In this document: positions 3,447 through 52,897 of the stretch, piece after piece
Position numbering within the stretch: position 1 is the stretch's first letter
Layout of the letters: each line of letters starts with the position of its first letter
Source: Escherichia coli
GTDB taxonomy: Bacteria; Pseudomonadota; Gammaproteobacteria; Enterobacterales; Enterobacteriaceae
Strand: one strand, 5' to 3'
Length of the DNA stretch: 64,000 nucleotides
Assembly: GCF_013315695.1 (NCBI RefSeq)
Contig: NZ_CP054353.1
The notes under the pieces: model-generated
What the model was told of the DNA's origin: nothing
The model's input: only the letters and a program-made list of their open reading frames with translations
The model's database searches: none
Translations under genes and position numbers: made by a program

Positions 3447-5165
3447 TTACCTTAGCCAGTTCGTTTTCGCCAGTTCGATCACTTCATCACCGCGTCCGCT
3501 GATGATTGCGCGCAACATATACAAGCTGAAACCTTTGGCCTGTTCGAGTTTGATCTGCGGTGGAATGGCTAATTCTTCTTTGGCTACTACCACATCCACC
3601 AACACCGGACCGTCGATGGAAAAGGCGCGTTGCAGGGCTTCATCGACTTCAGAGGCTTTTTCCACGCGAATACCCGTAATTCCGCACGCTTCGGCAATGC
3701 GGGCAAAGTTGGTGTCGTGCAGCTCAGTACCGTCTGTCAGGTAGCCTCCGGCTTTCATCTCCATCGCCACAAAGCCCAGCACGCTGTTATTAAAGACGAT
3801 AATTTTCACTGGCAATTTCATCTGCATTACTGAGAGGAAATCGCCCATCAACATACTGAAACCGCCATCGCCGCACATGGCGACCACCTGACGTTCCGGC
3901 TCGGTTGCCTGCGCACCCAGCGCCTGCGGCATGGCGTTAGCCATCGAACCGTGGTTAAACGAACCTAACAGACGACGCTTGCCGTTCATTTTCAGATAAC
4001 GTGCCGCCCACACCGTTGGCGTACCAACGTCACAGGTAAAGATGGCGTCATCGGCGGCAAAATGACTAATTTGCTGCGCCAGATATTGCGGGTGAATGGC
4101 TTTCTCGCTCGGTTTAGCTAAATCATCCAGCCCTTTGCGGGCGTCGCGGTAATCTTCCAGCGCTTTATCCAGAAACTTGCGATCGGTTTTTTCTTCCACC
4201 AGTGGCAGCAATGCCCGCAGGGTTGATTTGATATCGCCGACCAGTGCCATATCTACCTTGCTATGCGCGCCGATGCTGGCTGGGTTGATATCAATCTGAA
4301 TAATTTTGGCATCGGTCGGGTAGAACGCGCGGTAGGGAAATTGCGTGCCGAGCAGCACTAACGTATCGGCATTCATCATGGTATGGAAACCTGACGAGAA
4401 GCCGATTAATCCCGTCATTCCGACATCATACGGATTATCGTATTCGACATGCTCTTTACCGCGCAGGGCATGAACAATAGGCGCTTTAATTTTCCCGGCA
4501 AACTCAACTAACTCTTTATGCGCCCCCGCGCAGCCGCTGCCACACATCAGGGCGATATTGCTGGAATAACGCAGCAGTTGCGCCAGTTTGCGTAACTCTT
4601 CTTCTTCCGGCGTCACGACTGGTTGTGGCGCATTATACCAGTGGGTAGTTGCCCCTTCTGGTGCAGGTTTTAACGCCACGTCGCCCGGTAACACGACAAC
4701 GGAAACGCCACGGTTTAGCACTGCTTTGCGCATAGCAATTGCCAGCACTTGTGGGATCTGCTCTGGGCTGGAAACCAGCTCGCAATAGTGACTACATTCG
4801 CGGAATAGCTCTTGTGGGTGGGTTTCCTGGAAATAGCCGCTGCCAATTTCGCTGGAGGGAATATGAGCGGCAATCGCCAGTACCGGAACGTGATTGCGGT
4901 GGCAATCGAACAGGCCGTTGATTAAGTGCAGGTTGCCGGGGCCGCACGATCCGGCACAGACCGCCAGTTCTCCGCTAAGTTGTGCTTCAGCGCCAGCGGC
5001 AAACGCCGCCACTTCTTCATGCCGGGTGGACATCCACTCGATGGTGCCCATGCGATTAAGACTGTCACTAAGACCGTTCAGAGAGTCGCCCGTGACTCCC
5101 CAGATGCGTTTCACTCCTGCCGATTCGAGTGTTTTGGCGATATAAGCTGCAACCGTTTGTTTCAT
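3447..5165 (-). CDS. poxB: pyruvate oxidase (ubiquinone-dependent pyruvate dehydrogenase), TPP/FAD enzyme
   Basis: 572-aa [34 protein letters not shown]..., TPP-binding GDGG motif. Confidence 0.9.
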
Positions 5166-45766: not shown

Positions 45767-46036
45767 ATGTCAGAAATCACATCCCTGGTCACTGCTGAGG
45801 CAGTGAAGGAAGTCCTGCGCTCTGAAGAAGTCCTGAGCGCACTGAAACAGAAACTCCGCCAGAACCTTGAGGCGCGTCTTGATGCAGAAGTGGATGCCAT
45901 TCTGGATGAGCTGCTGGGCGTACCAGCGGTTCCGGAGCCGGAAGGCATTGCGGATGACAGTACTGTTTCAGATGGCGTCGGGTCTCAGCCTGACGGTAGT
46001 GAAGAGCCTCAGCCTGACGGCGAAATGATGATGTAA
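45767..46036 (+). CDS. acidic hypothetical protein
   Basis: Internal start MSEITSLVTAE of ORF 45593..46036; highly acidic C-terminus. Confidence 0.4.
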   Translation: MSEITSLVTAEAVKEVLRSEEVLSALKQKLRQNLEARLDAEVDAILDELLGVPAVPEPEGIADDSTVSDGVGSQPDGSEEPQPDGEMMM

Positions 46037-46111
46037 CCATGCGCAGGGGGTGTCGGTGTGAGCTGATGCCCCACTTGTTGTTGTGAGCTTCCGGATTGCG
46101 GGAGACGGGGT

Positions 46112-46327
46112 ATGTACCAGATGGAAAAAATCACAACAGGTGTGTCATACACCACGTCAGCGGTGGGAACGGGCTACTGGTTCCTGCAGTTGCTGGACAG
46201 GGTTTCCCCGTCTCAGTGGGCGGCAATAGGCGTGCTGGGGAGTCTGCTGTTTGGGCTGCTGACATATCTGACTAACCTGTATTTCAAAATCAGAGAGGAC
46301 CGGCGTAAGGCGGCGCGGGGAGAGTAA
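46112..46327 (+). CDS. holin (phage-21 S-type pinholin)
   Basis: 71-aa [46 protein letters not shown]..., two TM segments, charged C-terminus; recalled as S21 family. Confidence 0.85.
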
Positions 46328-46328
46328 A

Positions 46329-46682
46329 GTGATGAATAAAAAATATGAACTGGTTGTTAAGGGGATAAATAATTACGGGGATAAGGTTACTGTTACTGTG
46401 AAGCCGGAAGGTGACGGGCAAGCGTCGCTGTTGTTGCCAGATGTGGCGATTAGTCTTGACCGTACTGAAGGTGCCACGCTGGAGTTTTACGAAGCTGAGG
46501 CGAAAAAGCAGGCGAAGCAGTTTTTCATGGATGTTGCTGCCGGGTTATGTGAAGGGGATGGTCCGTTGCCGGAAAAGCGCCCCGTAATTTTAGAGGCGCA
46601 GGATGTGTTGATAACCTACAAAGGAAAGCTACCGGGAAGAATTACTGGTTCTCTGAAGACTCCACCGGAATCACAACCTTAA
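46329..46682 (+). CDS. hypothetical protein inserted between holin and endolysin
   Basis: 117-aa hydrophilic ORF starting 1 bp after the holin stop. Confidence 0.5.
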   Translation: MMNKKYELVVKGINNYGDKVTVTVKPEGDGQASLLLPDVAISLDRTEGATLEFYEAEAKKQAKQFFMDVAAGLCEGDGPLPEKRPVILEAQDVLITYKGKLPGRITGSLKTPPESQP

Positions 46683-46745
46683 TTCACTGACCGGAACAGA
46701 TAAACCTGTCCGTGGGCAGAAACCGATAAATCCTGATAAATATCC

Positions 46746-47279
46746 ATGAACGCAAAAATCAGATACGGCCTGTCGGCTGCCGTTCTGGCGCTGATTGCCG
46801 CAGGTGCGCCTGCGCCTGACATTCTCGACCAGTTTCTGGATGAAAAGGAAGGTAACCACACCACGGCATACCGTGATGGTGCGGGTATCTGGACTATCTG
46901 CCGCGGTGCCATCCTGGTGGATGGCAAACCTGTCGTTCCGGGCATGAAGTTGTCGAAGGAAAAATGCGACCAGGTTAACGCCATTGAGCGTGATAAAGCG
47001 CTGGCGTGGGTGGAGAAAAACATCAGAGTGCCGCTGACCGAACCCCAGAAAGCGGGGATCGCGTCATTCTGTCCGTACAACATTGGTCCCGGTAAGTGTT
47101 TCCCGTCGACGTTTTATAAACGAATTAATGCAGGTGATCGCAGGGGAGCGTGTGAGGCGATTCGCTGGTGGATTAAGGACGGTGGCAGAGACTGCCGTAT
47201 CCGCTCAAACAACTGTTATGGTCAGGTATCCCGTCGTGACCAGGAGAGCGCGCTGGCGTGCTGGGGAATCGACAGATAA
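46746..47279 (+). CDS. SAR endolysin (lysozyme, GH24; phage-21 R-type)
   Basis: N-terminal signal-anchor-release segment (LSAAVLALIAAGAPA) and E-D-T catalytic triad spacing (EGNHTTAYRDGAGIWTICRG). Confidence 0.85.
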   Translation: MNAKIRYGLSAAVLALIAAGAPAPDILDQFLDEKEGNHTTAYRDGAGIWTICRGAILVDGKPVVPGMKLSKEKCDQVNAIERDKALAWVEKNIRVPLTEPQKAGIASFCPYNIGPGKCFPSTFYKRINAGDRRGACEAIRWWIKDGGRDCRIRSNNCYGQVSRRDQESALACWGIDR

Positions 47280-47370
47280 GCAGAATATTTTGCTGAAAAA
47301 TAAGGCATGGCCACGCGGGCGGATAACACGAAATCCTGCGAACTGGCGAAACGTAAGTGAATAAAAGTAA

Positions 47371-47410
47371 AAACCCCGTTTGTTGGCACCAAGCGGGGTT
47401 TTGTGTTTCC
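47371..47410 (+). terminator. strong stem-loop with U-tract inside the lysis cassette
   Basis: aaaccccgtttg-ttggcac-caagcggggttt followed by tgtgttt. Confidence 0.5.
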
Positions 47411-47438
47411 TGACTCCGGAAAAGTCAAAGGAGAAAGT

Positions 47439-47576
47439 GTGTTTGATTTTAGCAAACTGATTCGGGAGATTCGAGTGATGGCTGAAAAATTATCCACCTG
47501 GAAGTTCATTCTTATCTGGCTGGTGTTTGTGATTATGGCCTCCGGTTATTTCATCGGTCAGATACGCTGGTGGTGA
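47439..47576 (+). CDS. small membrane protein (45 aa from GTG, or 32 aa from ATG at 47478)
   Basis: AGGAG RBS 9 nt upstream of GTG; product ...MAEKLSTWKFILIWLVFVIMASGYFIGQIRWW; stop overlaps the Rz start. Confidence 0.4.
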   Translation: MFDFSKLIREIRVMAEKLSTWKFILIWLVFVIMASGYFIGQIRWW

Positions 47577-47577
47577 A

Positions 47578-48015
47578 ATGAACCGCGTACTGTGCGTGGT
47601 CATCATTGCCCTGCTGGTGGCCTGTGGTGCGCTTAGTCTGGGGCTGAATCATTACCGTGATAACGCCATGACCTACAAAGAGCAGCGCGATAAAGCCACA
47701 TCCATCATCGCTGATATGCAGAAGCGTCAACGTGATGTAGCAGAACTCGACGCCAGATACACAAAGGAGCTTGCTGATGCTAACGCGACTATCGAAAGTC
47801 TCCGTGCTGATGTTTCTGCTGGTCGTAAGCGCCTGCAAGTCGCCGCCACCTGTGCAAAGTCAACGACCGGAGCCAGCAGCATGGGCGATGGAGAAAGCCC
47901 AAGACTTACAGCAGATGCTGAACTCAATTATTACCGTCTCCGAAGTGGAATCGACAAGATAACCGCGCAGGTTAACTACCTGCAGGAATACATCAGGACG
48001 CAATGCCTGAAATAA
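47578..48015 (+). CDS. i-spanin Rz
   Basis: 145-aa ORF with N-terminal TM and coiled-coil periplasmic domain; Rz1 embedded. Confidence 0.8.
   Translation: MNRVLCVVIIALLVACGALSLGLNHYRDNAMTYKEQRDKATSIIADMQKRQRDVAELDARYTKELADANATIESLRADVSAGRKRLQVAATCAKSTTGASSMGDGESPRLTADAELNYYRLRSGIDKITAQVNYLQEYIRTQCLK
47771..47962 (+). CDS. o-spanin Rz1 (lipoprotein) embedded in Rz in the +1 frame
   Basis: Lipobox LVVSAC followed by a proline-rich segment; fully inside Rz. Confidence 0.7.
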   Translation: MLMLTRLSKVSVLMFLLVVSACKSPPPVQSQRPEPAAWAMEKAQDLQQMLNSIITVSEVESTR

Positions 48016-48216
48016 TTTTTTTGCAAATCACAAAGTCAATTTAATGAGCCTCGCGATGCGGGGCTTTTTGCAATAAATGCGTACCGCAACGCATGTTTTT
48101 TACACCGAACCTGCCCCTTTGGAATGGGCCTTTGAGGATACCAGTTAGTGCTGGCGAGCCTCGGTGGGCTGGTTTCCTATGCGGCAAAGGTTCATTTCAA
48201 ATGGTAGGTAAACGTT

Positions 48217-48738
48217 ATGAATATCGTGCCACTTAATTACAAAGGTGAAATTGTCAGTTTCAACACTGATGGTTGGATCAACGTCACAGGTGTTGCTGAG
48301 AGATTTGGAAAACGCATTGATAACTGGATGCGTTTGGCAGAAACGCTTGAATACGTTCGTGCTTTAGACGAAGCGTTGACCGGGAAAGAATCTCAAATTT
48401 TACATCCCTCACAATCGAGGTATGTAAAAACCAGCAAGGCACGAAAGGACAGGGGTGGTGGTACGTGGCTACATCCAAAACTTTCAGTTGCATTTGCCCG
48501 TTGGTGTGATGCTCGTTTTGCTGTGTGGTGCGACCTGCACATTGATAGTCTGCTTCGCGGTGAACTGACTGAGCAGCAGAAATATGAGCAAGCATGTCGC
48601 ATTCGCGATGACCGGAAATCAAAAGCCAGCAATGGGGCAAGAGAGATGGCTCGCTGGCGATGGGATAAGCCGGTTATTGAAGCAAATGTTGAGTACTGGC
48701 GCGAGCAACTGCAGTTGACTCTCGATATCGCGTGCTGA
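48217..48738 (+). CDS. KilA-N-like domain protein
   Basis: 173-aa ORF with WLHPKLSVAFARWCDARFAVW motif. Confidence 0.45.
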   Translation: MNIVPLNYKGEIVSFNTDGWINVTGVAERFGKRIDNWMRLAETLEYVRALDEALTGKESQILHPSQSRYVKTSKARKDRGGGTWLHPKLSVAFARWCDARFAVWCDLHIDSLLRGELTEQQKYEQACRIRDDRKSKASNGAREMARWRWDKPVIEANVEYWREQLQLTLDIAC

Positions 48739-49719
48739 TGGCAAACGCAAAACTGCGTTATCGGAAAAATCAAAGCATTACGAGAACTGAGCAACGGCTA
48801 TCCATTACAAAGCCCATCTACGGGTGGGCTTGATAATGAAACCGGAATTTATTCTTGGCAACCAGTTACGGCAGTACCACGAAACAACCCAAGCCAGTAA
48901 GTGGGGAAATAACACTGGCAGCCACTGAAAGATGAAGCTCCTGCCTTAAGGCAAAAAAGATTCTTTGTGGTGGCGGACTGATGGAAAGACATCGGTTATT
49001 GCAGAGGCCATTCAATGAGTGGTCTCGACAATGGCTTATACCCTACACGGGATAACTTAACTGATATCCCTTTTAAAGGATAAAGGTATTCAAGCCTGAC
49101 ACATCATGCGCTGTATCGTCGCCGTATTCCTGCATTAACAGAGACCGCAGCCCGACAGGGAGACTCCTCTGCGCGAGTGTGCGGGGATAATCAAAAACGA
49201 TACACACCGGGGTTTACCGCGTTAACGGAGCGCGGCGTTGTCCCCTCATAGTCGCCTGTCCGGTGCGATGGTGGAAGAAACCGGATGTTTATCACTATTA
49301 ATTGATGACACAGAAATGGATTCATTGAATTTCAGCACGTTTTTGTATTCGTGTTATTGAACATCTGTTTATTTTACTTTTAACATATTGATAATAAAAA
49401 GAGCTGTAAATCTTTAGATGAGTCGATTTTGTCCGGGGAAGTTCAAATGGATTTTATGCTGACGGTTTCTGGTGTGGTTATCCTGTCCATTGCTTATACT
49501 GCAGATAAATATGGCTGCCATTTGTTATCACGTATTGGCGCTTATTGTTCGTTGATGCTGATTTTCTCGTCGCTTTTTTTTGAGTAAGTTATATTAATTA
49601 TAACAAATAATTTTCTGTGTTATTTTTTCAGGCTATCCCGTCAGAGGGGAAGCCTGTACTGCCGGGGAGCGAATGGAAAACTGATGTGTCCGGTAACTGC
49701 GTGTTCTGTGAACACCATG

Positions 49720-49905
49720 TTACTTAATTATGTAATTCATACCCGAACTCTCTGTTGACAGCCTTCTTCTGCAGGCTTCAATAACCCACGCTGAAAAGTT
49801 TCCTGAACCTTTCAGATCAAGAGCGATGTTAATTTGTTCAATCATCTGGTTTGGAAATCGGATGTTGCGGGTTGTTGTTCTGCGGGTTCTGTTCTTTGAT
49901 GACAT
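49720..49905 (-). CDS. small ribbon-helix-helix-like DNA-binding protein (YlcI/DUF3950-like)
   Basis: 61-aa ORF MSSKNRTRRTTTRNIRFPNQMIEQINIALDLKGSGNFSAWVIEACRRRL. Confidence 0.45.
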   Translation of the reverse strand: MSSKNRTRRTTTRNIRFPNQMIEQINIALDLKGSGNFSAWVIEACRRRLSTESSGMNYIIK

Positions 49906-50112
49906 AATGTTTCCCCATATTCAGTGTTGCTGATTTGTATTATCTGAAGTTGCTTTTACGTTAATTTGATGCAGATCAATTAATACGATACCTGCGTCAT
50001 AATTGATTATTTCTCGTGGTTTGATGGCGTACACACATGTTGTGATAAACCTTATATAGATGATAATCATTATCATTTTCGTGGGTCCTTTCCGGCGATC
50101 CGACCGGTTACG

Positions 50113-50124
50113 GGGCGGCGACCT
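50113..50124 (+). other. cosN cohesive-end site
   Basis: gggcggcgacct followed by cgcggattttcactatttatgaaaattttccgg, matching the lambda left cohesive end GGGCGGCGACCT as recalled. Confidence 0.8.
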
Positions 50125-50308
50125 CGCGGATTTTCACTATTTATGAAAATTTTCCGGGATCCATGTCCGGTTTCTCTGCAAGTTAACCATATGAAAAATA
50201 TAAAAACATGCTTTCCATGAACCGGGCATGCGCAAAAAATAGACACTAAAACCGGACATGACCGGTTTTGTTGTGATTGTGAGGTGAGAGTTTTTTGCGA
50301 GGTGAGGA

Positions 50309-50818
50309 GTGGCTACGCAGACTGAAGTTGCCAGGCATTTAAGTCTGACCGATCGCCAGCTTCGCAGATTGCAGAAATTGCCGGGTGCCCCGATATCGAA
50401 TAAGCGAGGGCAACTGGATCTGGATGCCTGGCGCGATTTTTACATATCGTATCTGAGAAGAAGTAAAAACGATGTGCCTGATGGCGATAGCGAAGACGAC
50501 TATGAGGAGAAATTGCTTATTGCCAGATGGGAACTGACAGCAGAACAGGCTGTTACACAGCAGTTAAAAAATGAGGTGTCAAAAGGAAAACTTATTGACA
50601 CCGGGTTCTGTATTTTTGCCCTCAGCAAGCTGGCAATGGCGTTATCCAGTACGCTTGATTCCATCCCTTTATCCATGCAGCGACAGTTTCCTGATTTAAC
50701 ACCGCGCCATCTTGACCATCTGAAAACCCTTATTGCGAAGGGGGCAAATCAGTGTGCGCGGGCGGGGGATAAATTACCGGATTTACTCGATGAATATATC
50801 AGAGCAACAACTGAATAA
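50309..50818 (+). CDS. terminase small subunit (Nu1-like)
   Basis: 169-aa ORF (GTG start); C-terminal similarity to lambda Nu1. Confidence 0.8.
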   Translation: MATQTEVARHLSLTDRQLRRLQKLPGAPISNKRGQLDLDAWRDFYISYLRRSKNDVPDGDSEDDYEEKLLIARWELTAEQAVTQQLKNEVSKGKLIDTGFCIFALSKLAMALSSTLDSIPLSMQRQFPDLTPRHLDHLKTLIAKGANQCARAGDKLPDLLDEYIRATTE

Positions 50819-52707
50819 TATGATGAGTGCTGTCACAACAGCATTACAGCCCCTGATAAGGGCATTGCCGGTGACGCCAGTTGAATGGGCTGATCAAAAT
50901 TATTATCTGCCTAAAGAATCTTCATATGGTGAGGGAGAATGGAAAACGCTGCCGTTCCAGATCGCCATCATGAACAGCATGGGGAATGATCAGATCCGGA
51001 CTGTTAATCTGATTAAATCTGCCCGTGTTGGCTATACAAAGATGTTGCTGGGGGTGGTCGGGTATTTTATTGAGCATAAATCCCGAAACAGTCTGCTTTT
51101 TCAGCCCACGGATTCTGCCGCTGAAGATTTTATGAAGTCTCACGTGGAGGCGACGATTCGGGATGTGCCATGTCTGAAAGACCTTTCTCCATGGCTGGGG
51201 CGTAAACATCGTGACAATACTCTCACGCTGAAACGCTTTTCATCGGGTGTGGGCTTCTGGTGCCTGGGCGGCGCTGCCGCCAAAAACTACCGTGAAAAAT
51301 CCGTGGACGTGGTCTGCTATGACGAACTTTCCTCGTTCGAACCGGATGTCGAAAAAGAGGGTTCGCCAACCCTGCTTGGGGATAAACGTATTGAGGGCTC
51401 TGTATGGCCCAAATCCATTCGCGGCTCGACGCCTAAAATCAAAGGCACCTGCCAGATCGAAAAAGCGGCCAACGAGTCGGCGCATTTCATGCGTTTTTAT
51501 GTGCCCTGCCCGCACTGTGGGGAGGCGCAGTATCTGAAATTTGGCGATGAGTCCACGCCTTTTGGCCTTAAATGGGAGAAGGACAGCCCCGAAAGCGTTT
51601 TCTACCTCTGTGAACATCATGGCTGCGTGATCCATCAGTCTGAGCTTGACCAGAGCAACGGGCGGTGGATCTGTGAAAACACGGGGATGTGGACCCGCGA
51701 CGGTCTGACGTTTTTCAGCGCTGCGGATAATGAAATTCCGCCGCCGCGCTCCATCACATTCCATATCTGGACGGCGTACAGTCCGTTCACCACCTGGGTA
51801 CAGATTGTCTATGACTGGCTGGATGCACTGAAAGATCCCAACGGCCTGAAAACCTTTGTGAACACCACGCTGGGCGAGACCTGGGAAGAGGCCGTGGGCG
51901 AAAAACTCGATCACCAGGTGCTGATGGATAAGGTTGTGCGTTACACGGCTGCGGTGCCTTCCCGGGTGGTTTATCTGACGGCGGGCATTGACTCGCAGCG
52001 AAACCGTTTTGAGATGTATGTCTGGGGATGGGCTCCGGGAGAGGAAGCCTTTCTGGTGGATAAAATCATCATTATGGGGCGTCCCGATGAGGAAGAGACG
52101 CTGTTACGTGTGGATGTGGCGATCAACAAAAAATACCGCCATGCAGACGGAACCGAAATGACCATTTCCCGTGTCTGCTGGGACACCGGGGGGAATTGTC
52201 TATCAGAGGTCAAAAAAACACGGTGTTTTCCGGGTGCTGCCGGTAAAAGGTGCATCTGTTTATGGCAAGCCGGTGATCACCATGCCAAAAACCCGCAATC
52301 AGCGGGGCGTGTATCTGTGCGAAGTGGGGACGGACACCGCAAAAGAAATTCTCTATGCCCGTATGAAAGCCGATCCCACGCCTGCGGATGAAGCCACGTC
52401 GTATGCCATCCGTTTTCCTGATGATCCGGAGATTTTTTCGCAGACAGAGGCGCAGCAACTGGTGGCGGAAGAGCTTGTGGAGAAGTGGGAAAAAGGAAAG
52501 ATGCGTCTGCTGTGGGATAACAAAAAGCGGCGTAACGAAGCGCTGGACTGCCTGGTGTATGCCTACGCGGCATTACGTGTGTCCGTGCAACGCTGGCAGC
52601 TTGATCTGGCTGTACTGGCAAAATCCCGGGAAGAAGAGACGACCCGGCCAACCCTTAAAGAACTGGCAGCGAAGCTGTCCGGAGGAGTGAATGGTTACAG
52701 TCGCTGA
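50790..52707 (+). pseudogene. terminase large subunit (lambda A-like) with a frameshift at 52188-52193
   Basis: N-terminal frame (MNISEQQLNN...RVCWDTGG) and C-terminal frame (GIVYQRSKKHGVFRVLPVKGASVYGKPV...) both match lambda gpA as recalled, but are offset by one base at a run of six G. Confidence 0.8.
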
Positions 52708-52897
52708 ACTGCAGGCGCTGCGTCAGGCGCGCCTTGATTTATTAACCGGTAAACGGGTGGTGTCTGTCCAGAAAGATGGTCGCAGAATTGAATATACGGC
52801 AGCTTCTCTGGATGAGCTTAACCGGGCGATCAATGATGCGGAGTCGGTACTGGGGACAACCCGCCGTCGCCGTCGTCCGCTGGGAGTGAGGTTATGA
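52691..52897 (+). CDS. head-tail joining protein W
   Basis: 68-aa ORF ...LTGKRVVSVQKDGRRIEYTAASL... close to lambda gpW. Confidence 0.85.
   Translation: MVTVAELQALRQARLDLLTGKRVVSVQKDGRRIEYTAASLDELNRAINDAESVLGTTRRRRRPLGVRL

What the first reader, a model, noticed from the sequence alone, without database searches (positions are those of the whole stretch)
48740..50112. About 1.4 kb of low-coding DNA between the lysis region and cos
Only a 61-aa ribbon-helix-helix-like ORF (49720-49905, minus strand) and sub-threshold hydrophobic ORFs are present, e.g. 49447-49587 (MDFMLTVSGVVILSIAYTADKYGCHLLSRIGAYCSLMLIFSSLFFE). There are several AT-rich stretches and apparent gene remnants. This is the bor-equivalent moron site of lambda and could hold a small toxin or a regulatory RNA.
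Basis: seen in the sequence. Interest (0 to 1): 0.35.

Follow-up and report, generated by a model that had tools for sequence, protein, structure and literature searches.

The report
Conserved structured RNA candidate near lambda cos
The "empty" 1.4 kb before the cohesive end of this E. coli prophage is not gene debris: it holds a known small gene, a probable small membrane-protein gene, and an unannotated 182-base element that phage lambda itself also carries and that evolves like a folded RNA.

Summary
The window is a lambda-like prophage of E. coli S88. The interval 48740-50112 runs from the stop of a KilA-N gene to the last base of the phage right end (cosQ 50083-50089, cosN 50113-50124). 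The description is accurate: no ORF over 61 aa, and two AT-rich stretches. The "gene remnants" are not supported.

Four conserved modules are present:
1. Conserved non-coding blocks and a hairpin, 48803-49106.
2. A 182-nt GC-rich element, 49107-49288. Its edges are sharp and its flanks are mosaic. It occurs in about 400 phage records, including lambda, 933W, 21 and ES18, and in 36% of complete E. coli genomes. It always lies downstream of Rz in late-gene sense. It is unannotated, absent from Rfam 15 and not open in any frame. Its helices show compensatory changes, and G·U outnumbers A·C about 13 to 1, which points to a + strand RNA.
3. An AT-rich cassette, 49295-49719, with a 46-aa two-segment hydrophobic ORF. 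A copy 81% identical in DNA keeps the ORF (dN/dS 0.31).
4. ylcI/ynfO (DUF3950, minus strand) plus about 200 bp nearly identical to the lambda right end.

The function of the RNA candidate is unknown. No toxin is shown.

The parts
48803..48838 (+). Conserved hairpin with 14-nt arms (CATTACAAAGCCCA / TGGGCTTGATAATG). It follows the upstream gene, whichever that is: KilA-N here, Rha in ES18, hypothetical genes elsewhere.
48839..49106 (+). Conserved non-coding blocks that different phages carry in different subsets: ES18 has 48839-48912, WGPS8 has 49036-49106, POCJ13 has 48868-49106. The 30-aa ORF at 48836-48928 is not a gene.
   Evidence: Alignment A6. The ORF is frameshifted or truncated in other copies. 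No Pfam or PHROG match.
49107..49288 (+). 182-nt conserved structured element, a candidate RNA in late-gene sense. Helices: P2 49113-49119/49197-49203; P3 49125-49135/49179-49189; P4 49146-49153/49158-49160+49169-49173; P5 49217-49221/49231-49235, enclosed by 49209-49211/49243-49245; P6 49258-49264/49280-49286, whose loop carries the invariant GGAAGAA.
   Evidence: About 400 phage records. 63 distinct copies aligned. RNAalifold and pair counts. G·U against A·C asymmetry. Covariance model R1 scores 229.8 bits here and 115.6 bits in lambda. No Rfam hit. No open frame.
49295..49719 (+). AT-rich accessory (moron-like) cassette. It is flanked by an imperfect 12-nt inverted repeat (49305-49316 / 49612-49623) and contains a hairpin at 49631-49656.
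   Evidence: GC 0.30-0.38. Present as a whole in 733 of 5426 E. coli genomes at 97-100% identity, but in only 2 phage records. Repeat I5. Replaced by unrelated sequence in WGPS8 and Sakai Sp9.
49447..49587 (+). 46-aa ORF with two hydrophobic segments (about residues 3-19 and 29-45), preceded by GGGGAAG 5 nt upstream of the ATG. Probably a small membrane protein.
   Evidence: Annotated by PGAP as WP_000347013.1. All homologues are from E. coli. A 45-aa ORF is kept in the 81%-identical SHP24 copy, with conservative substitutions and dN/dS 0.31. Hydropathy. No Pfam, PHROG or PADLOC family.
49720..49905 (-). ylcI/ynfO-family gene (DUF3950), 61 aa. The N-terminal 48 residues are nearly invariant and the C-terminal tail is variable.
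   Evidence: Pfam PF13132, E 9e-19. phrog_949, E 9e-32. PGAP name. Family alignment A9. Lambda has an unannotated 64-aa homologue.
49906..50082 (.). ylcI upstream region, about 95% identical to the right ends of lambda, DLP12 and ev099. It contains an inverted repeat, ATCAATTAATACG / CGTCATAATTGAT, at 49975-50007. It is the presumed ylcI promoter/operator region; no convincing sigma-70 match was found.
   Evidence: Alignment A1. Repeat I6. Promoter scan at chance level.
50083..50124 (+). cosQ (GGGTCCT, 50083-50089) and the cohesive-end sequence cosN (GGGCGGCGACCT, 50113-50124), identical to lambda.
   Evidence: Sequence. Alignment with the lambda right end and DLP12. The assignment of cosQ and cosN rests on established lambda knowledge.

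Best explanation
The interval is the accessory end of the right arm of a lambda-like prophage. It consists of conserved modules, not decayed genes.

Its most notable part is a 182-nt element at 49107-49288. I infer that it is transcribed as part of the Q-dependent late transcript, because it always has the same sense as Rz and lies downstream of it. I infer that it folds into a multi-helix RNA: a long 5' arm (P2-P3-P4), a variable hairpin (P5), and a terminal hairpin (P6) presenting an invariant GGAAGAA loop.

Most likely mechanism, inferred and not shown: it acts in cis at the 3' edge of the lysis cassette as an RNA processing or stability element. It could be a barrier to exonucleases or a nuclease entry site. 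Either role could release a stable late RNA of about 180 nt.

To its right lie three further modules: an AT-rich moron-like cassette with a 46-aa two-segment membrane protein gene; the convergent DUF3950 gene ylcI, a probable small DNA-binding protein; and cosQ/cosN.

Shown: the conservation, the sharp boundaries, the synteny, the lack of coding capacity, the compensatory base-pair changes and the strand asymmetry.

Inferred: that the element is transcribed, that it folds in vivo, and what it does.
For: Identity of the locus: 100% match to E. coli S88 and its annotation.

The element:
- 398 phage records match, 391 over at least 80% of its length, at 75-97% identity. All listed matches are on the + strand and most are unannotated.
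- It is found in 1940 of 5426 E. coli genomes at 4679 places, up to 9 per genome, and the listed matches are almost all unannotated.
- Its ends are sharp, with at least five different upstream and many downstream contexts. These include Rz stop + 10 nt on the left and cosQ 32 nt on the right.
- An Rz-like gene lies upstream on the same strand in 113 of 120 loci.
- Pair counts on A4: 98.1% of 2796 cells are paired, against 34-59% when partners are slid. Ten pairs change on both sides, and 0 of 500 shuffles reach any of the five measures.
- With ES18-like copies added (A8): 15 pairs change on both sides and 96.9% of cells are paired.
- P5 exists in five sequence versions that all pair. P6 switches CCGGU/ACCGG to CCUGU/ACAGG and to CUCGA/UCGAG.
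- G·U occupies 251 cells in 22 pair columns; A·C occupies 19 cells in 11 columns. One U·G pair is invariant. This fits folding of the + strand only.
- Copy lengths are 165-182 nt and differ by amounts that are not multiples of three. No frame is open in most copies.
- Covariance model R1 finds full-length copies in lambda (46864-47041, E 4e-32) and in DLP12.

Cassette and ORF.

ylcI. In K-12, ybcW-ylcI is reported as a convergent overlapping transcript pair (PMC12288877).
Against: - There are no expression data for the element.
- In Hfq-CRAC of uninduced EHEC, reads in the Rz-DUF3950 spacer are almost entirely in one strand column. I assign that column to the minus-strand EcOnc12 RNA, which implies few + strand reads.
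- The single-sequence folding energy is not exceptional: z = -0.86 and -0.43.
- Diversity is shallow. The element is found only in Escherichia and in ES18-like, probably Salmonella, phages. It comes in a handful of recombining lineages, so counted cells are not independent events.
- The structure was derived from the same sequences on which it was tested.
- Lambda and 933W copies carry two mismatches in P2 and P4, and phage 21-type copies have lost P6 through a 17-nt deletion.
- No mechanism is demonstrated. The proposed processing or stability role rests only on position.
- Lambda-type phages tolerate 1.5 kb of insertions between the element and cos, so the element is not a packaging signal.
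Confidence: 0.55

Rival explanations
1. First reader's reading. The site holds a small membrane toxin of a type I toxin-antitoxin kind. The 46-aa ORF would be the toxin, kept in check by an antisense RNA or by overlapping convergent transcription from ylcI.
For: - The ORF is small and hydrophobic, with two hydrophobic segments.
- It is conserved as an ORF across 19% DNA divergence, with dN/dS 0.31.
- It has its own AT-rich cassette, and the 35-nt block upstream is the most conserved part.
- It is convergent with ylcI across a 132-nt gap, and the analogous K-12 pair ybcW-ylcI is a reported excludon.
- A promoter-like site on the minus strand lies at 49410-49382.
Against: - It has no similarity to any known toxin family or antitoxin RNA in Pfam, PHROGs, PADLOC or Rfam.
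- Promoter-like sites are no more frequent than chance: 4 found against 5.5 expected.
- No antisense RNA is demonstrated.
- Small prophage membrane proteins are at least as often exclusion or accessory factors as toxins; this last point rests on my own knowledge (for example HK97 gp15).
Confidence: 0.15
2. The 182-nt element acts at the DNA level. It would be a block of homology at a module junction that survives because recombination within it yields viable hybrid phages, or a protein-binding site. Its apparent structure would be incidental.
For: - It has sharp ends with mosaic flanks on both sides.
- Primary sequence is strongly conserved even in unpaired stretches.
- The folding energy is unexceptional.
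- Its phylogenetic range is narrow.
Against: - Changes on both sides keep pairing in 10-15 helix positions.
- The 13:1 excess of G·U over A·C is meaningless for duplex DNA.
- P5 is replaced by unrelated sequences that still form a hairpin.
- A mere homology block needs neither fixed orientation nor helices.
Confidence: 0.15
3. The element is an independent, trans-acting small RNA gene expressed from the prophage, like the Hfq-dependent EHEC prophage sRNAs.
For: - Prophage sRNAs are common at accessory sites (PMC4104026).
- A neighbouring cassette allele in Sakai encodes a strongly Hfq-bound RNA.
- The element has invariant single-stranded stretches that could act as seeds.
Against: - There is no conserved promoter, because the upstream flank varies and can be the Rz stop codon.
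- There is no terminator or U-tail at the 3' end in most lineages.
- By my assignment of the strand columns, there are almost no + strand Hfq-CRAC reads in uninduced Sakai.
Confidence: 0.12
4. The whole interval is decaying DNA, made of pseudogene fragments with nothing under selection.
For: - The prophage is defective: its large terminase gene is frameshifted.
- ORFs are short.
Against: - Every segment is conserved in intact, functional phages such as lambda, 933W, 21 and ES18.
- No ORF fragment matches a protein family.
- ylcI is intact and matches DUF3950.
Confidence: 0.03

Closest known systems
Right-arm accessory region of phage lambda and prophage DLP12 (bor, lambdap78/ybcV, lambdap79/ybcW, ylcI, cos)
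   Same: Same map position, between Rz and cos. Same ylcI gene, and the same roughly 200-bp ylcI-to-cos sequence at about 95% identity. Identical cosQ and cosN. Lambda and DLP12 also carry the structured element, between bor and ybcV.
   Different: S88 has a KilA-N gene instead of bor. It has no ybcV or ybcW; an AT-rich cassette with a 46-aa membrane ORF sits in the ybcW position. Its element has a different P5 region, and extra non-coding blocks lie upstream.
Prophage morons (lambda bor and lom; HK97 gp15)
   Same: The cassette 49295-49719 has a base composition unlike its neighbours. It is present or absent as a unit among related phages, and it encodes a small membrane protein. These are the usual hallmarks of a moron; that description of morons comes from my own knowledge (Juhala et al. 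2000, cited in PMC4104026).
   Different: No convincing promoter or terminator was found. Expression from the prophage is untested. The ORF has no homology to bor, lom or any PHROG family.
EHEC prophage sRNAs: EcOnc10/11/12, AgvB and AsxR (Tree et al. 2014, PMC4104026)
   Same: EcOnc10-12 map to the same site, the spacer between the structured element and the DUF3950 gene, in Sakai prophages Sp9, Sp10 and Sp12. The ECs1786-ECs1788 spacer ranks 15th among intergenic regions in Hfq-CRAC.
   Different: EcOnc12 is a minus-strand RNA ending in a hairpin followed by seven U. Its sequence is absent from the S88 window. AgvB and AsxR lie between Q and S, not here, and their Rfam models do not match. 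The structured element has no terminator and is on the other strand.
Cis-acting structured RNAs within phage operons (for example HK022 put RNAs and the lambda sib/RNase III site); cited from my own knowledge
   Same: A folded RNA embedded in a long phage transcript, acting on that transcript. This is how I propose the element works.
   Different: It has no sequence or model similarity to any Rfam family. Its location, size (182 nt, five helices) and architecture are different. No activity has been shown.
Type I toxin-antitoxin systems (hok/sok, ldr/rdl, ibs/sib, zor/orz and others)
   Same: A small hydrophobic ORF in a prophage, with convergent transcription nearby.
   Different: No family match. 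There are two hydrophobic segments rather than the usual one. No antisense RNA has been identified and toxicity is untested.

Membership tests
Any Rfam 15 RNA family | Covariance-model score reaching the family's gathering threshold, or at least a low E-value | tested here: not met
   Nothing relevant at E<=1 over 46000-51000 or at E<=10 over 49050-49350. The only matches were chance hits to eukaryotic families, far below threshold.
Conserved structured RNA (generic criteria) | Base pairs maintained through compensatory changes more often than controls | tested here: met
   Ten (A4) to fifteen (A8) pairs change on both sides. 97-98% of cells are paired, against 33-59% when partners are slid. 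0 of 500 shuffles reach the observed value on 4-5 of 5 measures. Caveats: few lineages, and the structure was derived from the same data.
Conserved structured RNA (generic criteria) | Strand-specific signal (G·U tolerated, A·C not) | tested here: met
   251 G·U cells in 22 pair columns against 19 A·C cells in 11 columns.
Conserved structured RNA (generic criteria) | Transcription of the element and folding in vivo | not testable with these tools
   No RNA-seq was available. Hfq-CRAC tables suggest few + strand reads in uninduced Sakai, if the dominant strand column is the minus strand.
DUF3950 / YlcI-YnfO family | Pfam PF13132 match above the gathering score | tested here: met
   67.5 bits against a cut-off of 25, E 9.2e-19. 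phrog_949, E 9e-32. PGAP name 'YlcI/YnfO family protein'.
Ribbon-helix-helix DNA-binding proteins | Strand-helix-helix fold similar to solved ribbon-helix-helix structures | tested here: inconclusive
Type I toxin-antitoxin system | Small hydrophobic toxin ORF | tested here: met
   46 aa, GRAVY 1.11, two hydrophobic segments.
Type I toxin-antitoxin system | Cognate antisense RNA overlapping the toxin mRNA; homology to a known toxin or antitoxin family | tested here: not met
   No match to an Rfam antitoxin RNA. No Pfam, PHROG or PADLOC match. Promoter-like sites are at chance level. Whether any antisense RNA exists cannot be tested here.
Type I toxin-antitoxin system | Toxicity on expression | not testable with these tools
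   Needs experiment.
Lambda-type cos site | cosQ heptamer about 24-30 bp before the nick, and the 12-nt cohesive-end sequence | tested here: met
   GGGTCCT at 50083-50089 and GGGCGGCGACCT at 50113-50124, identical to lambda and DLP12.
Moron | Deviant composition and presence/absence among otherwise related phages | tested here: met
   GC 0.30-0.38. The cassette is present in 733 of 5426 genomes, always whole. It is replaced by other sequence in WGPS8 and Sp9.
Moron | Own promoter and terminator; expression from the prophage | tested here: inconclusive
   No + strand sigma-70 match upstream of the ORF and no clear terminator. Expression is untested.
EcOnc10-12 Hfq-bound RNA of EHEC prophages | Sequence similarity to the Sakai Sp9 spacer RNA with its terminator | tested here: not met
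   blastn of the Sp9 spacer against the window gives only chance matches.

The most novel reading that the evidence does not exclude
The 182-nt element is a new class of functional structured RNA carried in the late operon of lambdoid phages, lambda included. It would have an activity of its own, for example self-cleavage or nuclease-guided processing that separates the lysis and morphogenesis parts of the late transcript. Alternatively it could be a stable late RNA that titrates a host protein through its invariant GGAAGAA loop and AUCAAAAA/CACACC stretches.
Probability: 0.35. Interest if true: 0.7.

Novelty: new variant of a known kind. Interest (0 to 1): 0.55.

Why it matters
Phage lambda is among the most thoroughly annotated genomes. 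A conserved, apparently structured 170-180-nt element sits unannotated between bor and lambdap78, at lambda 46864-47041. It recurs in Shiga-toxin phages, in phages 21 and ES18, and in a third of complete E. coli genomes. If real, that is a gap in the map.

If it is a functional RNA, it adds a post-transcriptional layer to late gene expression in lambdoid and Stx phages. It can be tested directly in lambda with simple deletions and compensatory mutants. Covariance model R1 allows it to be annotated.

The work also clarifies what this supposedly empty prophage end contains: a probable small membrane-protein moron and the ylcI gene. It places the strongly Hfq-bound EHEC RNAs EcOnc10-12 at an alternative allele of the same site.

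Tried and rejected
- **Rfam**, E<=1 over 5 kb and E<=10 over 300 bp: nothing.
- **Known EHEC/EPEC prophage sRNAs.** AgvB, AsxR and the Pas RNAs lie between Q and S and end in terminators, so they are not this element. EcOnc13 and EcOnc32 are in the Q-S region of Sp3. EcOnc10-12 lie next to the element but on the other strand, in a cassette absent from S88.
- **Protein-coding reading of the element.** Rejected because of stops, because length differences are not multiples of three, and because no frame is open.
- **30-aa ORF at 48836-48928**, which looked conserved in ES18. Rejected because it is frameshifted or truncated in other copies.
- **Pseudogene remnants.** Ten ORF fragments were scanned against PHROGs and Pfam with no convincing hit.
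- **Thermodynamic stability as evidence.** z-scores were not significant on either strand.
- **Alternative long-range fold of the 3' domain** (UUUACCGCG pairing with GCGAUGGUGGA), which is the MFE in S88. It cannot form in the 933W and ES18 types.
- **Terminator role for P6.** Only the ES18 lineage has a U-run after it.
- **Packaging-site role.** The distance to cosQ varies from 32 to 1436 nt, and the element occurs with three terminase types.
- **Promoter search for the small ORF and for ylcI.** No convincing sigma-70 sites, and the scan was at chance level.
- **Literature searches** by sequence strings and accession numbers returned nothing. One search was wasted on the prefix 'bord', and one failed on a term that was too short.
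- **Genome-contig scan.** It returned Escherichia plus short contigs that look like contamination.
Full report
**Where we are.** The 1373-bp interval is 100% identical to E. coli S88 (NC_011742, about 580 kb) and to 13 other listed ExPEC genomes. RefSeq annotates the neighbourhood in this order: holin, YdfR-like protein, lysozyme, a small ORF, the Rz-type lysis protein, a KilA-N protein, a 46-aa hypothetical protein, YlcI/YnfO, the small terminase, and a frameshifted large terminase. The interval ends exactly at the phage right end. cosQ (GGGTCCT) is at 50083-50089 and the cohesive-end sequence GGGCGGCGACCT is at 50113-50124, both identical to lambda.

**The observation.** It holds in most respects.
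- The longest ORF is the 61-aa minus-strand ORF at 49720-49905; all others are 52 aa or shorter.
- The 46-aa hydrophobic ORF is present as quoted.
- GC drops to 0.30-0.38 at 49300-49674 and to 0.34-0.37 at 49825-50049.
- The "gene remnants" are not there. Ten sub-threshold ORFs give no credible Pfam or PHROG match, and the left part aligns to conserved, unannotated non-coding DNA of other phages.

**Right-hand third: known things.**
- The 61-aa ORF is a clear DUF3950 (YlcI/YnfO) protein: Pfam E 9e-19 and phrog_949 E 9e-32.
- Alignment with lambda, DLP12 and ev099 shows that lambda carries an unannotated 64-aa homologue at 48109-48303 on the minus strand.
- The roughly 200 bp between the ylcI start and cos is about 95% identical in all four.
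- The family has an almost invariant N-terminal 48 residues and arbitrary C-terminal tails. Some alleles simply read on into whatever follows, including the minus strand of the element described below.
- In K-12, the corresponding convergent pair ybcW-ylcI is listed as an excludon detected in at least half of the RNA-seq samples (PMC12288877). ylcI is therefore transcribed there.

**Middle: the AT-rich cassette (49295-49719).**
- It occurs in 733 of 5426 complete E. coli genomes, as a whole in 732 of them, at 97-100% identity in all but one. It occurs in only two phage records.
- It sits next to ylcI whatever the packaging module is, either lambda Nu1/A or HNH plus terminase.
- In other prophages (WGPS8, Sakai Sp9) unrelated sequence replaces it.
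- Its 46-aa ORF has homologues only in E. coli and belongs to no Pfam, PHROG or PADLOC family.
- One divergent copy (strain SHP24, 81% DNA identity) keeps a 45-aa ORF without internal indels, although the flanks do have indels. The substitutions are conservative (V/I, S/A, M/I, F/L). There are 11 synonymous and 13 non-synonymous differences, giving dN/dS 0.31.
- The protein has two hydrophobic segments.
- I conclude that it is probably a real small membrane-protein gene in a moron-like cassette. Whether it is a toxin, an exclusion factor or something else cannot be told here. No antisense RNA, promoter or terminator stands out.

**Left-centre: the unexpected part.** A four-way alignment showed a GC-rich stretch of about 190 bp conserved between prophages that differ on both sides of it.
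- A sensitive search with 49095-49295 found 398 phage records, 391 of them covering at least 80% of the query, at 75-97% identity. All listed matches are on the + strand and most are unannotated. They include 933W, VT2-Sakai, phage 21, and Salmonella phages ES18 and SPN3UB.
- The edges are sharp, at TGCGCTGTATCG (49107) and GGAAGAAACCGGA (49288). Beyond them the flanks fall into many unrelated classes. In the most compact phages the element starts 10 nt after the Rz stop codon and ends 32 nt before cosQ.
- Among the 120 loci, an Rz-like gene lies upstream on the same strand in 113. ylcI lies downstream on the opposite strand in 74. Nu1-type, HNH-type or 933W-type packaging genes lie downstream. 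bor lies upstream on the opposite strand in 15.
- The element is found in 1940 of 5426 complete E. coli genomes, at 4679 places and up to 9 per genome; the listed matches are almost all unannotated.
- A scan of one genome per species found it only in Escherichia, plus short contigs that look like contamination.

**It is not coding.** Copy lengths are 165-182 nt and differ by amounts that are not multiples of three. There are deletions of 1, 10 and 17 nt, and no frame on either strand is open in most copies.

**It behaves like a folded RNA of the + strand.**
- RNAalifold predicts a long 5' arm (P2, P3, P4) and a terminal hairpin, P6. By inspection there is also a variable hairpin, P5, enclosed by a GGG/CCC helix.
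- P5 occurs in five unrelated sequence versions that all pair: CCGCG/CGCGG, CUCAU/AUGGG, CUGUG/CGCAG, CGCGU/ACGCG and CAGC/GCUG.
- P6 switches from CCGGU/ACCGG to CCUGU/ACAGG and, in ES18, to CUCGA/UCGAG.
- For my 45-pair structure on the 63 copies, 98.1% of cells pair, against 34-59% when partners are slid. Ten pairs change on both sides, and none of 500 shuffles reaches any of the five measures.
- I built a covariance model, R1. It scores 229.8 bits in the window and has no second credible hit there. It finds full-length copies in lambda (46864-47041, 115.6 bits, E 4e-32) and in DLP12, between borD and ybcV.
- Adding 27 ES18-like loci and realigning with the model gave 15 pairs with changes on both sides, including new ones in P3 and P4, with 96.9% of cells paired.
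- G·U pairs fill 251 cells in 22 pair columns, whereas A·C fills 19 cells in 11 columns, and one U·G pair is invariant. On the minus strand these G·U pairs would be mismatches.
- The structure therefore belongs to the strand that the Q-dependent late transcript would carry.

**Caveats.**
- The diversity comes from a handful of recombining lineages.
- The structure was derived from the sequences used to test it, and the model-based alignments lean towards it.
- Single-sequence folding energies are unremarkable, with z between +0.12 and -0.86.
- Lambda and 933W copies have two mismatches, and phage 21-type copies have lost P6.
- I found no expression data.
- In Tree et al. 2014, the Sakai spacer ECs1786-ECs1788 ranks 15th among Hfq-bound intergenic regions, with reads almost entirely in one strand column.
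- After correcting a coordinate offset of about 135 bp between genome versions, the peaks EcOnc10-12 map to a minus-strand RNA. It ends in a hairpin followed by seven U, 12 nt to the right of the element. I therefore take the dominant column to be the minus strand.
- That RNA belongs to a cassette allele absent from S88. It shows that the + strand element is not an abundant Hfq ligand in uninduced lysogens, which is what a late-only transcript would predict.

**What it does.** This is inference.
- The element has no conserved promoter and no terminator. It is always in late sense after Rz, and it is the only thing kept between Rz and cos in the most compact genomes.
- That points to a cis-acting part of the late transcript at the end of the lysis cassette. 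I favour a processing or stability element, possibly releasing a stable RNA of about 180 nt. I put about 25% on that specific role and about 55-60% on "functional + strand RNA".
- Its invariant unpaired stretches (AUCAAAAA, CACACC and the GGAAGAA loop) suggest a binding partner.
- It is not a packaging signal: the distance to cos varies from 32 to 1436 nt and three terminase types are involved.
- The main rival is a DNA-level homology block at a module junction. That explains the sharp edges but not the compensatory changes or the G·U asymmetry.

**Comparison with what is known.**
- The element matches no Rfam 15 family.
- It is not one of the described EHEC/EPEC prophage sRNAs.
- Its characteristic sequence strings occur in none of the searchable papers.
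- ylcI, cos and the general architecture are known.
- The cassette is an ordinary-looking moron with an orphan ORF.

**Verdict.** The "remnants" are wrong. The guess of a "toxin or regulatory RNA" lands near something real: a probable small membrane protein, and, at other coordinates, an undescribed structured RNA candidate shared with lambda itself.

Noticed in passing
window 50821-52747 (L001 6082-8008): RefSeq annotates the large terminase subunit gene as frameshifted. The window shows two overlapping ORFs, 50733-52391 and 52171-52707. The S88 prophage is therefore probably unable to package DNA.
   Followed up: no
L132 6157-6207 (NC_002695.2, about 1779657-1779705, minus strand), with equivalents in Sakai Sp10 and Sp12: The orphan Hfq-CRAC peaks EcOnc10/11/12 of Tree et al. 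2014 were not Northern-tested but have very high read counts. After correcting a coordinate offset of about 135 bp, they map to a minus-strand RNA ending in the hairpin CUGCUGUGACUCCAACACGGCAG followed by seven U. It lies downstream of the DUF3950 gene and 12 nt from the structured element.
   Followed up: partly
L007 3110-3304 (lambda 48109-48303, minus strand): Phage lambda record NC_001416.1 does not annotate a 64-aa YlcI/DUF3950 homologue that is 83% identical to the S88 protein.
   Followed up: partly
L007 1865-2042 (lambda 46864-47041, + strand); L008 3006-3184 (K-12 DLP12, between borD and ybcV): Full-length copies of the structured element are present in lambda and in E. coli K-12, both unannotated. 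Their P3 carries a compensatory C-G to G-C swap relative to the consensus.
   Followed up: yes
window 50154-50274: Downstream of cosN there are repeats of CATGTCCGGTTT / CATGACCGGTTT in direct and inverted orientation (50162, 50249 and 50257). They include a palindromic hairpin at 50247-50270 flagged as a two-way terminator. They may be small-terminase binding sites (cosB) for this Nu1-like protein.
   Followed up: no
window 48217-48738: The KilA-N protein in the bor position gives a weak match (E 1.2e-5) to the PADLOC candidate defence protein PDC-S22. Its C-terminal part resembles Rha/ORF11CD3-type regulators.
   Followed up: no
window 49022-49036 compared with 48826-48840: Two similar motifs, TGGTCTCGACAATGG and TGGGCTTGATAATGA, lie 196 bp apart. 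WGPS8-type phages look like a deletion between them, which suggests the non-coding blocks are shuffled by recombination at short repeats.
   Followed up: partly
P0083; phage 2G7b: In prophages where ylcI directly abuts the element, the ylcI reading frame runs on into the minus strand of the element's 3' domain (tail ...DYEGTTPRSVNAVNPGVYRF). Annotated 'YlcI' proteins therefore sometimes overlap the RNA candidate.
   Followed up: no
window 47439-47576: PGAP annotates a 45-aa ORF with a hydrophobic segment between the lysozyme and Rz genes, another small membrane ORF in the lysis cassette.
   Followed up: no
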